Source of the DNA: Candidatus Wukongarchaeum yapensis
GTDB taxonomy: Archaea > Asgardarchaeota > Wukongarchaeia > Wukongarchaeales > Wukongarchaeaceae
Direction of reading: 5' to 3'
NCBI GenBank assembly: GCA_016840425.1
Contig: JAEOSI010000012.1
Coordinates: 1-21,854 of the forward strand
Length of the DNA stretch: 21,854 bases
The notes beneath the pieces are model-generated. The model had not been told where the DNA came from. It made no database searches and saw only the letters and a list, made by a program, of their open reading frames with translations. Both the position numbers and the translations under genes were made by a program. Within the stretch, counting starts at the first letter, position 1. Each line of letters begins with the position of its first letter. Of this stretch, positions 8,411-16,615 are shown one piece after another.

Positions 8411-9175
8411 CTATTCTCCAAATCTTCGTTCGCGATCTTGGAAATTGCGAATGGCGCGAAGAAGATCGATTTTTCTAAAAAGTGGCCAAAAAACGTCTGA
8501 AAAGTAGAGTTCACTATAAGCGCTTTGCCAAAGAAGAAAACCAGACATACGTTCTTCACCACTGGAACGAATTATTAAGTCTGGCTCTGGGAGCCCCGCA
8601 GTGGATAAATGGCTATCGATAAGGGCTTCATCTATTTCATCTAAGCTTAGAATTCCTCCTAAGACCTTTCTAGCAACCTCTTTAAAAGCGTCTATTAATT
8701 CGGTTCTACCACTATAACCAATCGCGATATTGAGCTGAGAATTGTCATAATTTTCAGTGGCTTTTTCAGCCTCTTTGATAGCTTCCCGAACATAGTCAGG
8801 GAGTAAATGAATGCGACCAATAGCCCGAACTTTTATCCTATTTCCATGAATCCTTTTGTCAGTAATTATGTTGTTAAATTTTTCTTCAAACAAACGCATT
8901 AAGACCTCGACTTCTTCTGGGGGGCGTCTAAAATTTTCTAAAGAAAAGGCATAAATTGTAACTACTTCAATACCAAGTTCACAACACCAATCAAGAAAAT
9001 CTTCAAGTCTCATAGCCCCAGCTTGATGAGCTATAAAAACAGATAATCTACGGGATCTAGCGAACCTACGATTTCCATCTAGAATAATTGCTAGGTGTTT
9101 TGGCATGTCTTTACTTTTAATCCGCTTCCAAAGCAGCCATTCATAAAGCCGATAAATGGGAGCAAAAATACTCAA
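8411..9175 (-). CDS. uppS: cis-prenyltransferase (polyprenyl diphosphate synthase)
   Basis: PKHLAIILDGNRRFAR, YAFSLENFRRP, YSGRTE, PDLIIRSSGEERMSGFLLWQSAYSE, RRFG. Likely start TTG 9175 or GTG 9184 rather than ORF-track 9268. Confidence 0.95.
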   Translation of the reverse strand: MSIFAPIYRLYEWLLWKRIKSKDMPKHLAIILDGNRRFARSRRLSVFIAHQAGAMRLEDFLDWCCELGIEVVTIYAFSLENFRRPPEEVEVLMRLFEEKFNNIITDKRIHGNRIKVRAIGRIHLLPDYVREAIKEAEKATENYDNSQLNIAIGYSGRTELIDAFKEVARKVLGGILSLDEIDEALIDSHLSTAGLPEPDLIIRSSGEERMSGFLLWQSAYSELYFSDVFWPLFRKIDLLRAIRNFQDRERRFGE

Positions 9176-9387
9176 ACGATACACGCCCACTCTTAAAATT
9201 AGGCTAATGAAAAAACGCAAAAGATTATTAACACAAGTGTGTGTTAAGTTATGGAAAGTAGGAAACAAAATATTTAATTCTTATTCTACTACTCAATAAA
9301 AATTATTAATAAAGATGAATAATAAAAAAGTAAGAATAAAGAGTACTAAAAACTGCAAGATATTTAAAATATGGCAGGTGTATATAT

Positions 9388-9759
9388 TTGCATATAGGGC
9401 GTGTAGAAGAGATTAGTGCGATACTCGACGAACTGGGGTCTTCAATAGAGGAGATTGAAGGATGTGCCGTTGTTTCAATTGAAGGCTTACCGATAGCAAG
9501 TTCTCTACCTGAAGGGATAGATGATACAAAGATTGCAGCAATGACGGCGGCAATGTTATCCTTAGGTGAAAGGGCGGTACTTGAGATAGGGAAAGGCGCA
9601 CTTCAACGTGTTTTTACTGAGGGAGAAAATGGATTTTTAATAGCAATAAACGCGGGACCTAATGCTGTACTTACGGTAATAGCTTCTCAGGAAGCAAAAT
9701 TAGGCCTACTTTTTCTTGACATAAGAAGAGCTGCAGAAAGAATAGCTACACTTATTTAG
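9388..9759 (+). CDS. Roadblock/LC7 (MglB-like) domain protein
   Basis: CAVVSIEGLPIASSLP, IAAMTAAMLSLGER, KLGLLFLDIRRAAERI; RBS GCAGGTG upstream. Confidence 0.9.
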   Translation: MHIGRVEEISAILDELGSSIEEIEGCAVVSIEGLPIASSLPEGIDDTKIAAMTAAMLSLGERAVLEIGKGALQRVFTEGENGFLIAINAGPNAVLTVIASQEAKLGLLFLDIRRAAERIATLI

Positions 9760-9901
9760 AATAAAATCATCAAAAACAATTCAATTCTTTTATATTAACC
9801 ATTTCTTATTTTAGGTTAATTTTTACATCTATTAAAAGTAGTAGAGATTAATATTAAGTGAACCCAGATTGTTAATTTCAATTTTTTAGGAGGAGTGGAG
9901 T

Positions 9902-10492
9902 TTAATGGGCAGTCTTAATGCCATAAAGTTGTTTGAGGAGTACTTCACGGGATAAGGTCTGAAAAGCTCTTTTAACGCCGATACCCTTTACGGCTATTGT
10001 TTCATATACGGGGATACTTGAGTTTTCAAGGCTTAAATCTTTTAGGATTTCTTCTCTTGACATTGCGTCATCGACATCTCGTTTATTTAAGGCAATTACT
10101 AATGGTATTTGATCCCCTAAAACGTCTCCTACTATATCTTTTAGTTCTTGTAAGGATTCTATATTGTCTTGTTTCATACTTCTTGAGCTGTCTGCTACAA
10201 AAAGTACTCCGTCTGCTCCCCGCATAATCACTTTTCTTTGGTGTTTATGCCGGGTTTGGCCAGCTACGGTGTATACGTCAAATAATATTTTTCCGCTGGC
10301 ACTCATCGGCACAAAGTCGAAGAATAGGGTGCGACCTGAAGGATCTTCGATCGATGTGAATCCTCCTTTGTCTAAGCCTTCTACATCGTCATAGACATAT
10401 CTTAGACTTGTGGTTTTTCCACCGAGGCTTGGACCCCAATAAACAAGTTTAAAATGAAGTCTTCCTTCACTGTCTTTTCGAATTTTTGCCAC
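9902..10492 (-). CDS. mglA: MglA-type small GTPase
   Basis: KLVYWGPSLGGKTT (G1), GRTLFFDF (G2 with intrinsic Arg), YTVAGQ (G3), NKRD (G4), ETIA (G5). Confidence 0.9.
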   Translation of the reverse strand: MAKIRKDSEGRLHFKLVYWGPSLGGKTTSLRYVYDDVEGLDKGGFTSIEDPSGRTLFFDFVPMSASGKILFDVYTVAGQTRHKHQRKVIMRGADGVLFVADSSRSMKQDNIESLQELKDIVGDVLGDQIPLVIALNKRDVDDAMSREEILKDLSLENSSIPVYETIAVKGIGVKRAFQTLSREVLLKQLYGIKTAH

Positions 10493-10587
10493 CCCGCTAT
10501 TTTTTTAATGGAATTAAAAATATAAAAATCGAATATTTTATCTGAGGAATATCGTTTATTTTTGGTGCTTGATTTATTTATTTGCAG

Positions 10588-11058
10588 TTAGAATTTTTCA
10601 AGTTCTTTTAAGGCAGCTTCTAATTCTGCCCTTTCGCTTGTAGATTCTTCAGCAGTTGCTTCTATTGGTTTTTCTGCTAGAAATTCTTGAAGTAGTGCTT
10701 TAAGATCGTCAGTAGCCTTTTTCATGACAAGGCGTACAAGGCCTATGTTAACTTCAGGATCGGTTATGACGCATAAAACGCCCCTTCCGCAACTTGCGGC
10801 AAAAATTTTTCCTTCGTCAAACTCAGAAGACACCATTAAGAGATCTCCAATATCGAGATTTCTTCCCTGTTCTTCGCTTGCACAAAAAACGGCGCTTGCA
10901 ATGGCCCCTATTCCATCTACGTCAACCGATGATGCGCTATACCTTGAAACATGAGCAATAGTAAGACCAGTTCTATCAACAAGGATACATTTTTTTATAG
11001 CGGAATCTGCTTTTACTACTTGACCTAACGCGCGGTCAAACTCTTTTAAAGCTATCAT
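10588..11058 (-). CDS. mglB: MglB-like roadblock protein with C-terminal helical extension
   Basis: CILVDRTGLTIA, IGAIASAVF, NIGLVRLVMKK; directly upstream of mglA; GGAGG RBS; tail ERAELEAALKELEKF. Confidence 0.82.
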   Translation of the reverse strand: MIALKEFDRALGQVVKADSAIKKCILVDRTGLTIAHVSRYSASSVDVDGIGAIASAVFCASEEQGRNLDIGDLLMVSSEFDEGKIFAASCGRGVLCVITDPEVNIGLVRLVMKKATDDLKALLQEFLAEKPIEATAEESTSERAELEAALKELEKF

Positions 11059-11225: not shown

Positions 11226-11350
11226 GTGAACTACTGCTACCCATCGGAGGAGCTTCTTGATTCAACGACTGAACTTGTCAAGATTTCTCTCAGTAGAGGT
11301 TCCGTCTCCACAGACGTAAATTCGGATGGTCCCTGCCCTACCACTTCCTC
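11226..11350 (-). ncRNA. IS200/IS605 right end / putative TnpB omegaRNA scaffold
   Basis: Minus strand reads GGGCAGGGACCATCCGAATTTACGTCTGTGGAGACGGAACCTCTAC...AAGTTCAGTCGTTGAATCAAGAAGCTCC...GTAGTTCAC, the typical tnpB 3' end ending TTCAC at 11226. 5' boundary approximate. Confidence 0.65.
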
Positions 11351-11677
11351 TAAACCTCTTTTCAAGACTACAACAAGAGTTGTAGTCCTTGTCAATTTCT
11401 AACCCACAAGTAGGACATCCATGGTTTCTTACAGCCAAACTCTTCTTCACTTTTTCGCCACATTTATAACATTCTTGTGACATTCCTGCCGGGTTAACTT
11501 CTAAAACCGTTTTACCAGCTCTTTCAGCCGTGTAAAACAGATATTGTATGAATTTGTTCCAAGAGGGATCCATGAGGTTCCGAGCATTATAACTTAATTT
11601 TTATCAAGCCGTTTATGTTTAATTTCTCAATAGCTATAAAATCATAGTTGTTAACATAAAATTTTGATAATTTGTGT
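11262..11677 (-). pseudogene. tnpB: tnpB 3' fragment (RuvC-II, Zn ribbon, RuvC-III), frameshifted
   Basis: HKLSKFYVNNYDFIAIEKLN, MDPSWNKFIQYL..AERAGK, CYKC..CPTC, DKDYN. Frameshift near 11600 and a probable second near 11375. Confidence 0.9.
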
Positions 11678-11695
11678 TAGGACTTACGCACTTGG
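11678..11695 (+). repeat. IS701 terminal inverted repeat (TAGGACTTACGCACTTGG)
   Basis: Matches the reverse complement of 12754-12771 (TAGGAGTTACGCAGTTGG) at 16/18; TSD TGTGT at 11673-11677. Confidence 0.93.
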
Positions 11696-12691
11696 GTTAA
11701 TTGGGTTAAGGGTGTAAGTTGGGTGGGTTAAGTAGGTTCTGATTGCCTCGCGGACAATGTCTATCTTAGCCTCATACCAGCTTATACCGGTCTGCAGCCG
11801 GCGTGCTTCCAGCCTGACGAAGGAGCGGAGCGCTAGCAAGATGTGCCTCTTCTGGGCTGCAGCGCTCCTAACTTGAGCCTTCTCAACGCCGCAGCACTGC
11901 TTAACAACCCTATGATAGGTCTCGATACCCCAACCCTGCTTTTCCAGCGCTTTCCGCTTCTCTTCCAGCATGTCAAGATCGCTAGCGGCCCAGTATTCCG
12001 CGTCCCCGTTTTCAGAGACTGTTAGGAAAACCTTAACGAAGCCGTAGCCCTTAAGATGCACAACCCTCCCCCCGGCAGGAATATCGACGGAGCTTAGGGG
12101 GACATTTCCCTTCCCATCAGGGTTAACGAGGCGGTTGCTTTAATTAAGCCTCGTCAACCAAGACCAGCCGTAACCCGCAAGAACCTTCAGGTTCTTCAAG
12201 CCGGCGTACCACGAGTTGAAAAGCACGTATGCCGGCTTAAAACCGCGCTCCTTAGCCTTTTTAAGCATCTCCCGAAAACGCTCGTTCTTAGTCCCTCCTC
12301 CGAGGGGTTTATCGTAGACGCTGAAATCACAGGGAACAAGGGCCTTTCCATCCGTCCAAAGCAACGTTAGGAGGCTGATGCCCTTAACCACCCGCCGGTG
12401 CTTCCCGCTCCAATGATAGGTCACCAGCTCTATCCTTGAAGCGTAAGGCTTATCCAGCGTGGTGTCATCCAGCACAAGCATGCCCCTATCAAGCTGAACG
12501 AGGCCCCGCGTCTCCTCTCACAAAGCCTCCGTGTCTGGAGGCTTTCTGCTCAGCAGCCTGGTGAAGGAGTCTTGGGCCGGTGAATGTTTGCTTTTACGCT
12601 GGCATCTAGCCGCTTCCGTGCACGTGAAAACCTTCTGAGCCGCGATCAGAAACTGAATATAGTCCAGATCATCACACTTCGGAGGGTTCAC
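11684..12691 (-). pseudogene. IS701-family DDE transposase with two in-frame stops
   Basis: One frame from GTG 12691: MNPPKCDDLDYIQFLIAAQKVFTCTEAARC..., LVLDDTTLDKPY, YHWSGKH, WGIETYHR. TGA at 12518-12520 and TAA at 12140-12142; terminal TAA lies inside the TIR. Confidence 0.9.
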
Positions 12692-12753
12692 GACCTAACA
12701 CCCACCATATTTTTGACCCGCTAATATTTATAACCGTCGAAAGAAACTACCAA

Positions 12754-12771
12754 CCAACTGCGTAACTCCTA
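12754..12771 (-). repeat. IS701 terminal inverted repeat (TAGGAGTTACGCAGTTGG)
   Basis: Partner of 11678-11695; TSD TGTGT at 12772-12776. Confidence 0.93.
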
Positions 12772-12890
12772 TGTGTAAAAAATCATCCCTCTGGTTTTTG
12801 ATCTTTTCATGGATTTTTGCAACCTTGATCTTCTGCTTTTTATAATTGGTAGAATCCTTTACTTTTTTTGATAATTTTCGTCGTTTTTTC
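12772..12890 (-). pseudogene. tnpB: tnpB middle fragment (helix preceding RuvC-II)
   Basis: KRRKLSKKVKDSTNYKKQKIKVAKIHEKIKNQRDDFLH; joins in frame to HKLSK at 11677 when the IS and one TSD are removed. Confidence 0.88.
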
Positions 12891-12899
12891 CCAAAATTT

Positions 12900-13200
12900 T
12901 TCAAAAAGTAATAAAGATGAATAAATAAGACTCCATAGAAAACAAAGAAAACAAAGAAAAAGAGAGATAAAAACCAGAAGAAAAAAACAACAAAAGAACA
13001 AACATCAAGGAAAAACCTGGATACAATCAGCAAAAACCACCAGAATCCCATTTCAACCCCCTAAAAAGAAAAACTGAAAAAACACAAAAAAACAAAACTA
13101 CAAAAAACAGATCTCCACGCAAAAAAACAAAACAGAAACCCCCCCCCCCAAAAAAAAAACTATTAAAAGCCTTCGAAAACACACACAATAATTAAAGATG
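12900..13200. other. A/C-rich, T-depleted low-complexity tract
   Basis: 3 T in 60 nt at 12961-13020 and again at 13081-13140; C11 then A10 run at 13139-13159. Confidence 0.8.
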
Positions 13201-13370: not shown

Positions 13371-13667
13371 TTAAGTGAGTTTTTCTCGGAGTACTACGAG
13401 TACGTATTCTTCTTCAGGTGCCACTAATATTTCGCTATTTCCGCAATCTATGTTGAAAAAGCCTAAAGCGCCTTCGCCAATTTCCGTGATCACTTGTTTT
13501 GCTTTTCCTACGAGGCTTGTAATTAGGGCGGCAACCTTTTCTGCTTTTTGCATATCTACACCATCTGCACTTATGGGTAGACCTTCATTGCTCATAACAA
13601 TAACACCGCGCACTCCAGGATGTTCGCGGAACCGTTTTATGGTTTCATTAATTTTCTTGGTAATCAT
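13371..13667 (-). CDS. Dynein light chain roadblock (DYNLRB)-like protein
   Basis: 98 aa; INETIKRFREHPGVRGVIVMSNEGLPI...KAKQVITEI...EILVAPEEEYVLVVL follows the eukaryotic DYNLRB pattern. Confidence 0.85.
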   Translation of the reverse strand: MITKKINETIKRFREHPGVRGVIVMSNEGLPISADGVDMQKAEKVAALITSLVGKAKQVITEIGEGALGFFNIDCGNSEILVAPEEEYVLVVLREKLT

Positions 13668-13875
13668 TTAGTGATCATCCCTTTTGATATACTTTCTTTT
13701 GATTTACTTTACTTTTATAAATTAATTATTTAAAAATATAGTGTGCTTCTAAACTCACTAACAAACTCCTCTAATCCTAAAATATAAATTAACAATCTTT
13801 AAATCGTGTAAAAAAGAGGATATTTAAAAAACTAATTAGATTTTAATAAGATGTGGTATTGTGTGGTGTTAATTA

Positions 13876-14259
13876 GTGAGCTTCAATGTTCTTGAAGAGG
13901 CTGTTGCAAGAACTATGAGATCTATAGAAAATTTGGAAGGAATAATCGTGATTTCACGAATAGATGGTTCTGTAATCGTTGGTCAAACCATTTTCGAGCT
14001 TGAACATGAAAATATCGCAAAGGAAGCATTAGAGTTGGTAACAAGGGCTTCTAAACTTGGAATTGCCGTAGAAAAAGGAGGAAATGAAGAGGTTTTTGTA
14101 GGATTGCGAGAAGGATTTGTAGTGGTCGTTGGTACGGGCAACACCATTTTAGCGGGAATTGCAAGTGCAGACGCTAAACCGGAAAGGGGCATAATTACGA
14201 TAAAGCTTAGAAAGTTAGCGGAAAAACTAGACGCCCTCTTAAGGGCAAAAGTTGCTTAA
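13876..14259 (+). CDS. Divergent roadblock/profilin-like fold protein
   Basis: Helix, then LEGIIVISRIDGSVIVG, helix, beta-rich EEVFVGLREGFVVVVG, terminal helix GIITIKLRKLAEKL. Confidence 0.65.
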   Translation: MSFNVLEEAVARTMRSIENLEGIIVISRIDGSVIVGQTIFELEHENIAKEALELVTRASKLGIAVEKGGNEEVFVGLREGFVVVVGTGNTILAGIASADAKPERGIITIKLRKLAEKLDALLRAKVA

Positions 14260-14400: not shown

Positions 14401-15066
14401 TTGACAGATTTTAAGATGTTAGAAGCGATTTTAAACATTATAAATGAAAATCTTGAGGGAAAAGAAGGGGCAAGAGAGACAATATTGAGATTGACTAGGA
14501 AGATCGTTAAATTTTCAAGTAAGGCTATTAAGTCTGTGCATAATGGAAATTTTAAAGAGGCTGATGAATTGTTAGAAGAGACAAGGAAAACGTTGAAATT
14601 ACTGGATGAAGAGTTGAAAAAATGCCCAATTTTTGCTTCATGGGGTACAGTCATTCAGGCGTATCAAGAGTTTGTAGAAGCATATATTTTTAGGTATTTT
14701 ATCGAGGGATGGGATGAAAATAAGATGCCTCCTCCTGAAATGTTAGGCGTACCTGATCTTGCGTATATTTTGGGATTAGGGGATCTTGTTGGTGAGTTAA
14801 GAAGATATTGTCTTGATAGACTTCGCCAGAAAGATTTGGCTGGAGCTGAGAGGGCATTAAGGTTTTCAAATGCAGTATTTGAAGGGTTGATGGAACTTAA
14901 TCAATTCCAAGAAGCAATAATTCCTGGTTTAAGACGGAAATGTGACATAGCAAGAATGATTTTAGAGAAAACGAGGGGAGACTTGACTAATGCTTCAGCG
15001 CGTATAAGTTTAGAAACTCAAATAAAAGATCTATTAAAACTTTCAAAAGAAAAAGCTTTTGAATAA
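14401..15066 (+). CDS. Translin/Trax family (C3PO-like) RNase
   Basis: TRKIVKFSSKAIKSVH, AYQEFVEA, YILGLGDLVGELRR, LRRKCD; acidic catalytic residues appear retained; GGAGG RBS. Confidence 0.92.
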   Translation: MTDFKMLEAILNIINENLEGKEGARETILRLTRKIVKFSSKAIKSVHNGNFKEADELLEETRKTLKLLDEELKKCPIFASWGTVIQAYQEFVEAYIFRYFIEGWDENKMPPPEMLGVPDLAYILGLGDLVGELRRYCLDRLRQKDLAGAERALRFSNAVFEGLMELNQFQEAIIPGLRRKCDIARMILEKTRGDLTNASARISLETQIKDLLKLSKEKAFE

Positions 15067-15110
15067 AAAAATAAAAAAACTTTCAAAAGAAAAAGCTTTT
15101 GAATAAAAAA
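15036..15110 (+). repeat. 35-bp exact direct repeat, 40-bp period
   Basis: AAAACTTTCAAAAGAAAAAGCTTTTGAATAAAAAA at 15036-15070 and 15076-15110; includes the translin stop codon. Confidence 0.92.
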
Positions 15111-15136
15111 TAGATTTTTTTATGACGGTGACTTAG

Positions 15137-16615
15137 TTGATAAGAAGAGGTATTCCTCACCCAGTTTTCGATGTTAAGGAAAAGCTTAGACAGACATATT
15201 TGAATTTGAGTTTTGATGAATTAGTAAACCCGTTGATTATACCTAAAGAAGAGATAGAAAAACAGTGGGATACTGAAGCATATGCTGTACTTGACAGGAT
15301 CTATTATCTAGCAGGTTTACCCCGACCTAATGTGGGTTTAAGCACTAAACACGTTAAAAATATTGAAAAAATTTTGGGAAAAAAACTTGAAGAAGAGAGA
15401 ATTGAAGCATTAAGACAGACTTTGCATGGTTATAAGAAGGGAAATATAAGCGGGGATGATTTATTAGAAATAATTGAAGAAACTCTTTTAGTATCAGAGG
15501 GAGAGGCAGAAGCGATACTTGATCTTTTTCAAGAATTTAAAGATCTTCAGCCCATACCTATGCAGATAACATTAAGGAGCCACATGACTTCTGGATGGTT
15601 TATAACGCTTAGTGAGATGCAATTTAAAAAACCTTTACCCATAAAACTTTTCTCCATAGATCGATGTTTTAGAAGGGAACAACAGGAAGATACCGGTCAT
15701 CTGAAAACTTATCATTCAGCTAGCTGTGTTGTTGCAGATAATGAATTAGACCCAGACATAGGTAAAGTTGTATCGAGAAATTTGCTTGAACCTTTTGGTT
15801 TTAAAGAATTTGAAATTAGAAAGAAGCCTAGGAGCTCGTCATACTACAAAATAGATTCAGAGCATGAAGTTTTCGCGAAACATCCTTCTACAGCAAAGAT
15901 GGTTGAGGTTGCGGATTATGGGATTTATAATCCTAAGGTTCTTAGTAGGTATGGTATAGAATTTGCTGTTTTTAATTTGGGCTTGGGAGTGGAGAGATTA
16001 GCGCAGATTCTTTACGAGGAGACTGATCTTAGGATCCTTATTTATCCTCAGTTTTTTGTTGAAACGATTTTTTCAGATGAAGAGATTGCAAAGATGATAA
16101 AGGTTGCTAAAAGGCCTAAAACACCTGTAGGTAGGAAAGTGCAGGCAAATTTTGAGAAAGTTGCTTTGAGAAATAAGGATGTATCAGCTCCTTGTAGGTT
16201 TACGATTATAGATGAAAAAATTGAGGAGAAGAGGCTAAAAGTGGAGATTTTTGCGATTCATGGAGATCCAAAACTTTTGGGAAAGGCTGCTTTAAATGAG
16301 ATTTTTGTTTTGAATGGAGACATTTTAGGGGTACCTATGGAAGGGGTGGAATGGGCGGATAAGATAAATAAAAACGGTATTAGGGCTAAGTATACCTATT
16401 TGTATGGTTTTTCAAATTTAGTAGGAGCAGAACTAGAAAAACTAATCAGAGACGGGAAGAATGGGATGAAGGAGATAAATGTAGCTATGGTGAAAAGTTT
16501 TGGAGATGTGAATTTGACGATAGATCCTGCGGGGTTGAGATATATTACCGCAAATCATAAAAAGATAGATATTAGGGGACCGGCTTTTATAAGGGCGAGG
16601 ATAGAGGTGGGATAG
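15137..16615 (+). CDS. sepS: O-phosphoseryl-tRNA(Cys) synthetase (SepRS)
   Basis: GIPHPVF, AVLDRIYYLAGLPRPNVG, TLRSHMTSGWFITL, FSIDRCFRREQ, YHSASC, FNLGLGVERLA, KIDIRGP; GGTGA RBS before TTG. Confidence 0.95.
   Translation: MIRRGIPHPVFDVKEKLRQTYLNLSFDELVNPLIIPKEEIEKQWDTEAYAVLDRIYYLAGLPRPNVGLSTKHVKNIEKILGKKLEEERIEALRQTLHGYKKGNISGDDLLEIIEETLLVSEGEAEAILDLFQEFKDLQPIPMQITLRSHMTSGWFITLSEMQFKKPLPIKLFSIDRCFRREQQEDTGHLKTYHSASCVVADNELDPDIGKVVSRNLLEPFGFKEFEIRKKPRSSSYYKIDSEHEVFAKHPSTAKMVEVADYGIYNPKVLSRYGIEFAVFNLGLGVERLAQILYEETDLRILIYPQFFVETIFSDEEIAKMIKVAKRPKTPVGRKVQANFEKVALRNKDVSAPCRFTIIDEKIEEKRLKVEIFAIHGDPKLLGKAALNEIFVLNGDILGVPMEGVEWADKINKNGIRAKYTYLYGFSNLVGAELEKLIRDGKNGMKEINVAMVKSFGDVNLTIDPAGLRYITANHKKIDIRGPAFIRARIEVG

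What the first reader, a model, noticed from the sequence alone, without database searches (positions are those of the whole stretch)
13371..13667. Roadblock protein closely resembling eukaryotic dynein light chain DYNLRB, linked to MglAB
Seen: at 98 aa it lacks the final helix of MglB-type proteins. By-eye alignment to human DYNLRB1 as recalled: INETIKRF/VEETLKRL, GVRGVIVMSNEGLPI/GVQGIIVVNTEGIPI, KAKQVITEI/KARSTVRDI, EILVAPEEEYVLVV/EIMVAPDKDYFLIV. DYNLRB-like proteins have been reported in Asgard archaea. The point of interest is the genomic link to an MglA GTPase, which hints at its pre-dynein function.
Basis: partly seen in the sequence, partly recalled or inferred. Interest (0 to 1): 0.7.

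Follow-up and report, generated by a model that had tools for sequence, protein, structure and literature searches.

The report
Asgard dynein-like Roadblock in MglA operon
This 98-residue gene of a Hodarchaeota-type Asgard archaeon is the archaeal counterpart of the eukaryotic dynein light chain Roadblock, a protein type whose structure is already published. Across most Asgard families it lies beside an MglA GTPase, its MglB regulator and other Roadblock genes, which points to a GTPase-linked role before dynein existed.

Summary
The gene is real. It lies on the minus strand at 13371-13667, encodes 98 aa and matches Pfam Robl_LC7 at 68.7 bits.

- **Known family.** It is the ortholog of Odin-RBLC7 (PDB 7F8F, E 7e-22), a truncated Roadblock published in 2024. 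The model (pLDDT 92) has no C-terminal helix.
- **Closest relatives.** Outside Asgard archaea, its closest relatives among 1.84 billion representative proteins are eukaryotic DYNLRB proteins (34-35% identity to the human-type protein). Profile scores to DYNLRB are 75-84 bits, against 7-29 bits to the other Roadblock paralogs. In 98% of bootstrap trees Asgard RBLC7 plus DYNLRB separate from MglB and the other Roadblocks.
- **Linkage.** The link to mglAB is not unique to this genome. MglA and/or MglB lie within 3 kb of the ortholog in 15 of 20 Asgard families sampled, usually in the order RBLC7-MglB-MglA-Roadblock-cis-prenyltransferase. A fourth Roadblock is often next to it. The 2.3-kb gap in this window comes from a nested IS insertion that a same-genus genome lacks.

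Binding is untested, because the one complex prediction gave no answer. The protein type is known. I found the conserved operon in none of the papers I could search, and this scan has met the same module before on other DNA. Interest is moderate.

The parts
13371..13667 (-). RBLC7 gene: 98-aa truncated Roadblock, the Asgard counterpart of eukaryotic DYNLRB. It is the first gene of the ancestral operon.
   Evidence: ORF. Pfam Robl_LC7 68.7 bits. PDB 7F8F E 7e-22, Drosophila robl 1.4e-13, human DYNLRB1 1e-12. Model without a C-terminal helix. Foldseek top matches are dynein Roadblock chains and 7F8F.
13668..13875 (.). 208-bp divergent intergenic region between RBLC7 and the fourth Roadblock gene. 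It presumably holds both promoters.
   Evidence: Gene coordinates. The divergent arrangement recurs in many families. No promoter was tested.
13876..14259 (+). Robl127: a fast-evolving full-length Roadblock of 127 aa, and the most constant neighbour of RBLC7.
   Evidence: No Pfam hit. PDB 9JQ8 'Roadblock/LC7 domain protein' E 8e-10 and 7F8M 9e-7. Lies within about 2 kb of RBLC7 (immediately adjacent outside f33) in 30 of 45 loci, 14 of 20 families. Forms its own clade, 100/97.
11231..13187 (.). Nested transposon insertion that splits RBLC7 from mglB. A tnpB (IS605-type) element is itself interrupted by an IS701-like DDE element at about 11681-12771. All frames are broken.
   Evidence: Pfam: Cas12f1-like TNB, DDE_5, OrfB_IS605 fragments. 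The same-genus genome aligns up to 11230 and again from 13188, with nothing in between. The tnpB element is multi-copy in the genome, and other copies join across the inner element. Contigs of an independent metagenome run bridge both junctions.
10588..11058 (-). MglB-type Roadblock of 156 aa, with an acidic linker and a conserved C-terminal amphipathic helix.
   Evidence: Pfam Robl_LC7 38.9 bits. PDB MglB 6H5B/6IZW E 2e-4. Orthologs are 55-69% identical and end in a shared LKAAL-ELEK-type motif.
9902..10492 (-). MglA-type small GTPase of 196 aa.
   Evidence: PDB 3T12 (T. thermophilus MglA) E 4e-35 and 5YMX/6H17 (M. xanthus MglA) 1e-34. The next-best hits, Ras/Arf, are at 1e-7. It has Arg next to the G2 Thr (GRTLFFDF) and G3 TVAGQ, close to the Group 1 signature TVPGQ of PMC4316618.
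9388..9759 (+). Robl123: full-length Roadblock of 123 aa, ortholog of the solved Thor-RB and MK-D1 Roadblock3. It is inverted in this genus and co-oriented with the operon elsewhere.
   Evidence: Pfam Robl_LC7 65.1 bits. PDB 7F8M E 1e-22 and 9JUE 1.4e-22. Position after MglA in 21 of 45 loci.
8411..9268 (-). cis-prenyltransferase (undecaprenyl/dolichyl diphosphate synthase family), the conserved last gene of the block.
   Evidence: Pfam Prenyltransf 263 bits. Follows Robl123 in f1, f4, f6, f14, f16, f28, f32 and f33.

Best explanation
The gene encodes the Hodarchaeota ortholog of the Asgard RBLC7 protein. This is a truncated Roadblock (alpha-beta-beta-alpha-beta-beta-beta, no C-terminal helix) whose Odinarchaeal ortholog crystallises as a homodimer. 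The family is nearly universal and mostly single-copy in Asgard archaea, and it is the closest prokaryotic relative, sister or stem, of the eukaryotic dynein light chain DYNLRB.

Ancestrally it is the first gene of an operon RBLC7 - mglB - mglA - Roadblock (- cis-prenyltransferase), with a fourth Roadblock gene divergent upstream. In this genome a nested IS insertion has pushed it 2.3 kb away from mglB.

I think the most likely function is a Roadblock platform or adaptor subunit of the MglA small-GTPase switch. An RBLC7 dimer would work with the MglB dimer and the two other Roadblocks to control or localise MglA. The sheet face left open by the missing C-terminal helix would be free to take a helix from a partner, as DYNLRB takes the dynein intermediate chain and LAMTOR4/5 take LAMTOR1.

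Shown here: identity, fold, affinity to DYNLRB, and conserved gene order. Inferred: physical association with MglA/MglB, homodimer formation of this particular protein, and the helix-docking role.
For: **Identity and fold**
- Pfam Robl_LC7, 68.7 bits.
- 7F8F Odin-RBLC7 at E 7e-22, with 51% identity in the structural alignment.
- AF2 model, pLDDT 92, without a C-terminal helix.

**Affinity to DYNLRB**
- Of the best 150 of 1.84 billion representatives, about 110 are DYNLRB-like. Nearly all the rest are Asgard RBLC7-like.
- The RBLC7 profile scores 53 DYNLRBs at a median of 75 bits, against 16-29 bits for MglB, Robl123 and Robl127. The DYNLRB profile scores the window protein at 83.3 bits, against 7-10 bits for the paralogs.
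- In the IQ-TREE analysis, RBLC7 plus DYNLRB form one side of a branch in 98% of bootstrap trees. Eukaryotes are monophyletic at 99/99.

**Distribution**
- An ortholog is found in 351 of 400 genomes of the phylum, mostly in one copy.

**Linkage**
- In 45 loci from 44 genomes and 20 families, an MglA and/or MglB ortholog lies within 3 kb in 29 loci and 15 families. Spacers are mostly 10-250 bp on the same strand.
- In family f8 RBLC7 sits 15-54 bp upstream of mglA even though mglB has moved elsewhere.
- The same-genus genome has RBLC7 about 350 bp from mglB, with no IS.
- In families f26/f27 neither RBLC7 nor an MglB ortholog was found, while MglA persists. This is a possible co-loss of the two.

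**Helix-docking precedent**
- Tran et al. propose that Odin-RBLC7 offers an alpha-helix binding site, as DLRB1 and LAMTOR4/5 do.
Against: - No physical interaction was shown.
- Five of 20 families (f11, f19, f21, f22, f23; f22 is the largest group) keep RBLC7 away from MglA and MglB, next to Robl127 only or in tandem copies. The link is therefore dispensable at the level of gene order.
- Families f26/f27 keep MglA without a detectable RBLC7, so MglA does not strictly need it. Those genomes are only 66-87% complete.
- Conserved gene order over such distances could partly be inherited synteny rather than co-function. The housekeeping-type cis-prenyltransferase travels with the block too.
- The tree has only 102 columns and its bootstrap had not fully settled. 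It holds no LAMTOR sequences and almost no non-Asgard prokaryotic Roadblocks.
- In this genome the IS insertion probably uncouples transcription of RBLC7 from mglB-mglA.
Confidence: 0.7

Rival explanations
1. RBLC7 works mainly with Robl127, its most constant neighbour, as a separate Roadblock pair or scaffold. Its position beside mglB-mglA is inherited synteny without direct interplay with the GTPase.
For: Robl127 lies within about 2 kb of RBLC7 in 30 of 45 loci and 14 of 20 families. These include f19, f21, f22 and f23, where MglA and MglB are elsewhere. There the two genes are often co-oriented with 29-245 bp between them.
Against: In f4, f8, f13 and f15 no Robl127 was detected next to RBLC7, while MglA or MglB is. 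In f8 RBLC7 stays 15-54 bp upstream of mglA after mglB left. Robl127 evolves fast, so missed detection cuts both ways.
Confidence: 0.17
2. The four Roadblocks form a Ragulator-like stack: full-length Roadblock dimers plus a truncated RBLC7 dimer, as LAMTOR2/3 plus LAMTOR4/5. The stack would tether the GTPase to a membrane, and RBLC7 would be functionally a LAMTOR4/5 analogue rather than a DYNLRB analogue.
For: RBLC7 reaches the Pfam LAMTOR5 cut-off (27.3 against 27 bits) and MglB reaches the MAPKK1_Int/LAMTOR3 cut-off (25.3 against 25). Ragulator combines full-length and truncated Roadblocks (Tran et al.). A membrane-lipid-carrier synthase gene travels with the cluster.
Against: The sequence affinity is far stronger to DYNLRB (E 1e-12 to 1e-13) than to any LAMTOR chain: no LAMTOR chain appears among the phmmer PDB hits, and Foldseek ranks Ragulator chains below the dynein chains at 15-18% identity. 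No LAMTOR1-like gene was found in this 92%-complete genome with PF15454, a search in which no control genome rang either. The GTPase is of MglA type, not Rag type.
Confidence: 0.1
3. The resemblance to DYNLRB reflects transfer of a eukaryotic gene into Asgard archaea, or the protein already serves a motor or cytoskeleton adaptor role.
For: The closest non-Asgard relatives are eukaryotic.
Against: The family is present in 351 of 400 Asgard genomes, mostly single-copy and syntenic. Eukaryotes form one long-stemmed clade (99/99) beside or within the Asgard diversity, not the reverse. No dynein heavy chain or intermediate chain family was found in the genome (in the heavy-chain search, no control genome rang).
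Confidence: 0.03

Closest known systems
Odin-RBLC7 (PDB 7F8F, Odinarchaeota LCB_4; Tran, Akil, Senju, Robinson, Commun Biol 2024, PMC10933270)
   Same: Same orthologous family. phmmer E 7e-22, about 50% identity, same length class (94 against 98 aa), same truncated Roadblock architecture. Its genomic position is equivalent in the small-genome family f29, whose RBLC7 is letter for letter the aligned 7F8F sequence: RBLC7-MglB-Roadblock with a divergent Robl127.
   Different: It comes from a different class (a Hodarchaeota-type genome). Here the GTPase gene is still in the cluster, whereas in the Odin-type genomes MglA lies about 140 kb away. The paper does not discuss this gene neighbourhood. 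It states that MK-D1 GTPase genes are generally not in operons with Roadblock genes.
Eukaryotic dynein light chain Roadblock, DYNLRB1/2, Drosophila robl, Chlamydomonas LC7 (PDB 1Z09, 2HZ5, 3L7H/3L9K, 7KZM)
   Same: Same fold and length, 31-35% identity, TM-score 0.8-0.87. Shared conserved core positions V19, G21, G29, L52, E79, A83, L90 and V92. Specific sister or stem relationship in profiles and tree.
   Different: No dynein heavy or intermediate chain was found in the genome. Residues invariant in Asgard RBLC7 on one face of helix 2 (E43, A47, S51, G54) are variable in DYNLRB. Conversely, R72 and Q94 are fixed only in eukaryotes. The genomic partners are a GTPase and other Roadblocks, not a motor.
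Bacterial MglA/MglB(/MglC) polarity switch (Thermus thermophilus 3T12/3T1Q; Myxococcus xanthus 6IZW, 6H5B)
   Same: The neighbouring GTPase is a clear MglA (E 4e-35) with the intrinsic Arg next to the G2 Thr and a T-x-x-G-Q G3 motif. The neighbouring 156-aa Roadblock resembles MglB and has a C-terminal helix. Extra Roadblock paralogs acting with MglB are known in Myxococcus (MglC; my own knowledge, not tested).
   Different: RBLC7 itself is not MglB. It lacks the C-terminal helix and scores MglB poorly (21 bits with the RBLC7 profile). The Asgard module has four distinct Roadblock families around one GTPase.
Ragulator subunits LAMTOR4/5 (truncated Roadblocks) with LAMTOR2/3
   Same: Truncated Roadblock architecture combined with full-length Roadblocks near a small GTPase. 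There is a weak Pfam LAMTOR5 match.
   Different: Much weaker sequence similarity than to DYNLRB. The GTPase is of MglA type, not Rag type. No LAMTOR1 was found.

Membership tests
Roadblock/LC7 superfamily (Pfam PF03259) | Significant match to the family profile over the whole domain | tested here: met
   68.7 bits against a cut-off of 23, residues 6-93 on profile positions 2-90 of 91.
RBLC7 architecture (truncated Roadblock, as defined by Tran et al. 2024) | alpha1-beta1-beta2-alpha2-beta3-beta4-beta5 with no C-terminal helix | tested here: met
   AF2 model, pLDDT 92: H2-14, E19-26, E31-35, H39-63, E71-74, E78-84, E88-95. The chain ends 3 residues after the last strand.
Asgard RBLC7 orthogroup (Odin-RBLC7, 7F8F) | Closest solved relative, reciprocal clustering, shared gene neighbourhood | tested here: met
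   7F8F is the best PDB hit at E 7e-22. The window protein sits inside the RBLC7 clade. The neighbourhood is shared with the Odin-type loci L052/L053.
Asgard RBLC7 orthogroup (Odin-RBLC7, 7F8F) | Homodimer | not tested
   Known for the Odin ortholog from the crystal structure. Not examined for this protein.
Eukaryotic DYNLRB (dynein light chain Roadblock) | Sequence groups specifically with DYNLRB rather than with other Roadblock families | tested here: met
   Reciprocal profile scores are 75-84 bits against 7-29 bits. The split is recovered in 98% of bootstrap trees. It branches as sister or stem to the eukaryotic clade, not inside it.
Eukaryotic DYNLRB (dynein light chain Roadblock) | Subunit of a dynein complex; binds the intermediate chain helix | tested here: not met
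   No Dynein_IC2 or Dynein_heavy match in the 92%-complete genome (in the heavy-chain search no control genome rang, and in the IC2 search one rang below the cut-off). Archaea are not known to have dynein (established knowledge). It therefore works in another context and should not be filed as a dynein light chain.
MglB (GAP of MglA) | Full-length Roadblock with C-terminal helix; clusters with MglB | tested here: not met
   No C-terminal helix. No MglB chain is among the phmmer PDB hits up to E = 1. MglB forms a separate clade, 100*. The true MglB ortholog is the neighbouring gene at 10588-11058.
MglB (GAP of MglA) | Binds MglA and stimulates GTP hydrolysis | not testable with these tools
   This needs biochemistry. 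The single complex prediction gave no verdict (see Tried and rejected).
Ragulator LAMTOR4/5 | Profile match and presence of LAMTOR1 and Rag GTPase partners | tested here: inconclusive
   LAMTOR5 scores 27.3 bits, just at the cut-off of 27 and far below Robl_LC7. PF15454 LAMTOR1 was not found, but no control genome rang either. The neighbouring GTPase is of MglA type.

The most novel reading that the evidence does not exclude
The helix-binding groove that DYNLRB uses for the dynein intermediate chain was first used inside an MglA switch. In Asgard archaea the RBLC7 dimer would dock a helix of an operon partner, for example the conserved C-terminal amphipathic helix of MglB. This would tie several Roadblock dimers into a Ragulator-like platform that sets where and when MglA is active. 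Eukaryotes would later have re-used the same subunit and groove for dynein.
Probability: 0.15. Interest if true: 0.75.

Novelty: new member of a known kind. Interest (0 to 1): 0.45.

Why it matters
DYNLRB is an eukaryotic signature protein whose role before dynein existed is unknown. This work shows that its Asgard counterpart is a near-universal, single-copy gene that ancestrally heads an operon with an MglA GTPase, MglB and two further Roadblocks. That gives a concrete and cheap experiment: co-express five small soluble proteins and measure binding and GTPase activity. It also supplies a matched GTPase-regulator set in Asgard archaea. The structural paper on these proteins said such a set is hard to read from genome layout. 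The idea that Roadblock light chains descend from NTPase regulators is old (Koonin and Aravind 2000), so this refines that idea rather than overturning it.

Tried and rejected
- **Complex prediction.** Complex prediction with two RBLC7 chains, MglA as partner, GTP and Mg gave 'no answer': score 0.00 in both runs, controls not folded. This is neither support for nor evidence against binding.
- **Alignment query for related loci.** The search for related loci with the RBLC7 alignment failed because no stretch was conserved enough. The single-protein scan found only the same-genus genome.
- **Names for divergent homologs.** The listing of cluster members on ten divergent RBLC7-like representatives returned no names, so their taxa remain unknown.
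- **Expression.** No RNA holder was listed for the stretch.
- **Un-inserted allele.** Laying contigs of four metagenome runs showed no contig that joins across the IS insertion. An un-inserted allele was not seen there. Contigs of run X2 bridge both junctions, which only shows that the insertion is not an assembly artefact.
- **Unpublished structures.** A paper search for PDB codes 9JUE and 9JQ8 found nothing relevant.
- **Dynein and Ragulator partners.** Dynein_IC2, Dynein_heavy and LAMTOR1 families were not found in the 92%-complete genome. For two of these searches no control genome rang.
- **Rejected reading: RBLC7 as a second MglB.** Rejected on architecture and tree position.
- **Rejected reading: transfer from eukaryotes.** Rejected on distribution and tree shape.
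- **Careful tree.** The run needed three calls, and its bootstrap had not fully settled (correlation 0.922). The position of eukaryotes within or beside the Asgard RBLC7 clade (63/77) is treated as unresolved.

Full report
**1. The observation**

An ORF of 98 codons fills 13371-13667 exactly, on the minus strand; the plus-strand reading is full of stops. It matches Pfam Robl_LC7 at 68.7 bits (cut-off 23) over nearly its whole length, and LAMTOR5 just at its cut-off.

Against all PDB sequences the best hit is 7F8F, at E 7e-22. Next come Drosophila robl (3L7H, 1.4e-13), human DYNLRB1 (1Z09, 1e-12) and about 20 further dynein Roadblock chains. No MglB chain and no LAMTOR chain is listed up to E = 1.

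An AlphaFold2 model built on 37 orthologs has pLDDT 92. It reads helix, two strands, long helix, three strands, and the chain ends right after the last strand. The C-terminal helix of MglB-type Roadblocks is therefore absent. Foldseek ranks dynein Roadblock chains and 7F8F first, with TM 0.76-0.87.

**2. What is around it**

On the same strand downstream lie an MglB-type Roadblock (10588-11058) and an MglA-type GTPase (9902-10492). The GTPase matches PDB MglA at E 4e-35, while the next families follow at 1e-7. A third Roadblock (9388-9759) is the ortholog of the solved Thor-RB and MK-D1 Roadblock3, at E 1e-22. A fourth, fast-evolving Roadblock (13876-14259) is divergent from the finding; it has no Pfam hit but matches PDB 9JQ8 at 8e-10. 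A cis-prenyltransferase (8411-9268) ends the block.

The 2.3 kb between mglB and the finding hold only transposon debris: TnpB fragments and a broken DDE_5 transposase. The genome has nine PF03259 matches in all. The only named close relative is a 'Candidatus Hodarchaeota archaeon' MAG, which is the same-genus genome.

**3. Is the link to mglAB special to this genome? No.**

The RBLC7 ortholog is found in 351 of 400 genomes of the phylum, mostly once per genome. I fetched 20-kb stretches around it in 44 genomes of 20 families (45 loci, L031-L070 and L072-L076). I chose them for family spread and long contigs before seeing their neighbours. I then annotated all ORFs with profiles of the six window genes.

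- MglA and/or MglB orthologs lie within 3 kb of RBLC7 in 29 of 45 loci and 15 of 20 families.
- The commonest order, on one strand with short spacers, is RBLC7 - MglB - MglA - Robl123 - cis-prenyltransferase, with Robl127 divergent upstream. This full order, Robl127 included, is seen in f1, f6, f14, f16, f32 and f33. In f4 no Robl127 was detected, in f15 neither Robl127 nor the cis-prenyltransferase, and in f30 no cis-prenyltransferase.
- In f8 mglB has moved elsewhere, but RBLC7 stays 15-54 bp upstream of mglA.
- In f29 mglA has moved about 140 kb away, while RBLC7-MglB-Robl123 stay together. The RBLC7 of f29 is identical to the aligned 7F8F sequence.
- In f19, f21, f22 and f23 RBLC7 keeps only Robl127 beside it. 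In f11 it is tandemly duplicated.
- Robl127 lies within about 2 kb of RBLC7 in 30 of 45 loci and 14 of 20 families.
- In f26/f27 I found neither RBLC7 nor an MglB ortholog, while MglA (48-49% identity) is present. Those genomes are only 66-87% complete.

**4. The gap in this window**

The same-genus genome has RBLC7 about 350 bp from mglB. The window aligns to it up to 11230 and again from 13188, so 11231-13187 is an insertion. The outer element is a tnpB element that is multi-copy in this genome. Other copies join straight across window 11681-12771, which is therefore a second, nested element. Contigs of an independent marine-sediment run bridge both junctions, so the insertion is not an assembly artefact.

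**5. Is it specifically DYNLRB-like?**

An exhaustive phmmer search of 1.84 billion representatives gave 272 hits. Of the best 150, about 110 are closer to a human-type DYNLRB1 sequence than to the query, and nearly all the rest are Asgard RBLC7-like. Only one looks like another prokaryotic Roadblock.

Profile scores point the same way:

| Profile | Target | Score |
|---|---|---|
| Asgard RBLC7 | 53 diverse DYNLRBs | median 75 bits (minimum 54) |
| Asgard RBLC7 | Robl123, MglB, Robl127 | 29, 21 and 16 bits |
| DYNLRB | Asgard RBLC7 | median 84 bits (window protein 83.3) |
| DYNLRB | Asgard Roadblock paralogs | 7-10 bits |

The IQ-TREE analysis (LG+C20+F+G4 by PMSF) covered 189 rows and 102 columns.
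- RBLC7 plus DYNLRB are one side of a branch in 98% of bootstrap trees, with SH-aLRT 92.
- Eukaryotes are monophyletic at 99/99 on a long stem.
- Their position next to the f22/f23 RBLC7 group has only 63/77 support, so whether eukaryotes branch within or beside the Asgard clade is unresolved.
- Limits: few columns, a bootstrap that had not fully settled, no LAMTOR sequences and almost no non-Asgard Roadblocks in the tree.

**6. Differences from DYNLRB**

Core positions are shared: V19, G21, G29, L52, E79, A83, L90 and V92. However, E43, A47, S51 and G54, spaced along one face of helix 2, are invariant or nearly so in Asgard RBLC7 and variable in DYNLRB. R72 and Q94 are fixed only in eukaryotes. 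I could not tell whether the Asgard-specific face is a partner surface or the helix-helix dimer contact.

No dynein intermediate chain, dynein heavy chain or LAMTOR1 family was found in the genome. These are weak negatives, because for two of the searches no control genome rang.

**7. Mechanism**

Shown:
- The protein is a truncated Roadblock of the family whose Odin member is a crystallographic homodimer.
- It has specific kinship with DYNLRB.
- Its gene order with one MglA, one MglB and two more Roadblocks is ancient.

Inferred: it is a platform or adaptor subunit of the MglA switch. MglB orthologs carry a conserved C-terminal amphipathic helix behind an acidic linker, and RBLC7 has a sheet face left open by its missing helix. 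Tran et al. proposed that this face binds a partner helix. Docking of an operon partner's helix there is my speculative reading; in bacteria that MglB helix binds MglA (PMC6785124, abstract).

The f22 MglB that I read lacks the C-terminal motif, whereas the f8 one keeps it. That is one genome each, so it is only a lead.

**8. What is known**

- The DYNLRB-like Asgard Roadblock has been published with a structure (Tran et al. 2024, PMC10933270).
- A 2026 study lists four Asgard Roadblock clusters as enriched in eukaryotic hits (PMC12962969).
- MglA-like GTPases in Asgard archaea, and Alphafold3-modelled archaeal MglA/MglB-like pairs (one from Thorarchaeota), are mentioned in the literature.
- Tran et al. 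state that MK-D1 GTPase genes generally are not in operons with Roadblock genes. That fits my f22-type result, if f22 is the Loki-type group, which I could not name.
- The Liu et al. preprint describes other conserved Asgard operons, but not this one in the text I could search.
- I found no description of the RBLC7-mglB-mglA-Roadblock operon in the searchable library. That library is not the whole literature.
- This scan has met the same module before on other DNA. My results were obtained before that look-up, and they agree with it.

**9. Verdict**

The protein is a new member of a known kind. The conserved operon is a useful, under-described lead to the function of DYNLRB's ancestor before dynein existed. 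Binding remains untested.

Noticed in passing
window 11231-13187: Nested transposon insertion between mglB and RBLC7. A multi-copy tnpB (IS605-type) element is interrupted by an IS701-like DDE element at about 11681-12771, and all frames are decayed. It is absent from the same-genus genome and present in an independent metagenome assembly.
   Followed up: partly
window 8411-9268 (and L032-L035, L041, L042, L045, L051, L057-L061, L068, L070): A cis-prenyltransferase (undecaprenyl/dolichyl diphosphate synthase family) follows the last Roadblock of the cluster in at least eight Asgard families. It is unclear whether it belongs to the module functionally or is only old synteny.
   Followed up: partly
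window 10588-11058; L077:1465-1938; L078:1408-1941: MglB orthologs share a C-terminal LKAAL-ELEK-type amphipathic helix behind an acidic linker. The one f22 MglB read, from a lineage with a dispersed cluster, ends in an acidic tail without the motif. The one f8 MglB read keeps it.
   Followed up: partly
window 13371-13667, residues 43, 47, 51, 54: E43, A47, S51 and G54, on one face of helix 2, are invariant or nearly so in 39 Asgard RBLC7 sequences but variable in 53 eukaryotic DYNLRBs. R72 and Q94 are fixed only in eukaryotes. It is undecided whether the Asgard face is a partner surface or the dimer contact.
   Followed up: partly
window 9902-10492: The MglA has the Group 1 features of Wuichet and Sogaard-Andersen 2014 (Arg next to the G2 Thr; G3 TVAGQ against TVPGQ). 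That paper's survey, made before Asgard genomes were known, listed Group 1 members only from bacterial phyla.
   Followed up: partly
L075:about 9800-10500 and L076:about 9580-10220 (family f11): RBLC7 is tandemly duplicated (two copies of 29-33% identity to the window protein). It lies about 1 kb from a divergent small GTPase that scores only 34 bits with the MglA profile.
   Followed up: no
genomes G287, G292, G294 (families f26, f27): MglA (48-49% identity) is present, but neither RBLC7 nor an MglB ortholog was found with the window proteins. The genomes are 66-87% complete. This could be a joint loss of the two Roadblocks.
   Followed up: partly
proteins P0096 and P0116 (representative library): RBLC7-like domains occur with extra parts: a C-terminal zinc ribbon (P0096) and an N-terminal ZPR1 jelly-roll fragment (P0116). 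The origin of these proteins is unknown.
   Followed up: no
window 14401-16615: A translin-family gene and an O-phosphoseryl-tRNA synthetase (SepRS)-like gene follow the Roadblock cluster. Both are syntenic in the same-genus genome only.
   Followed up: no
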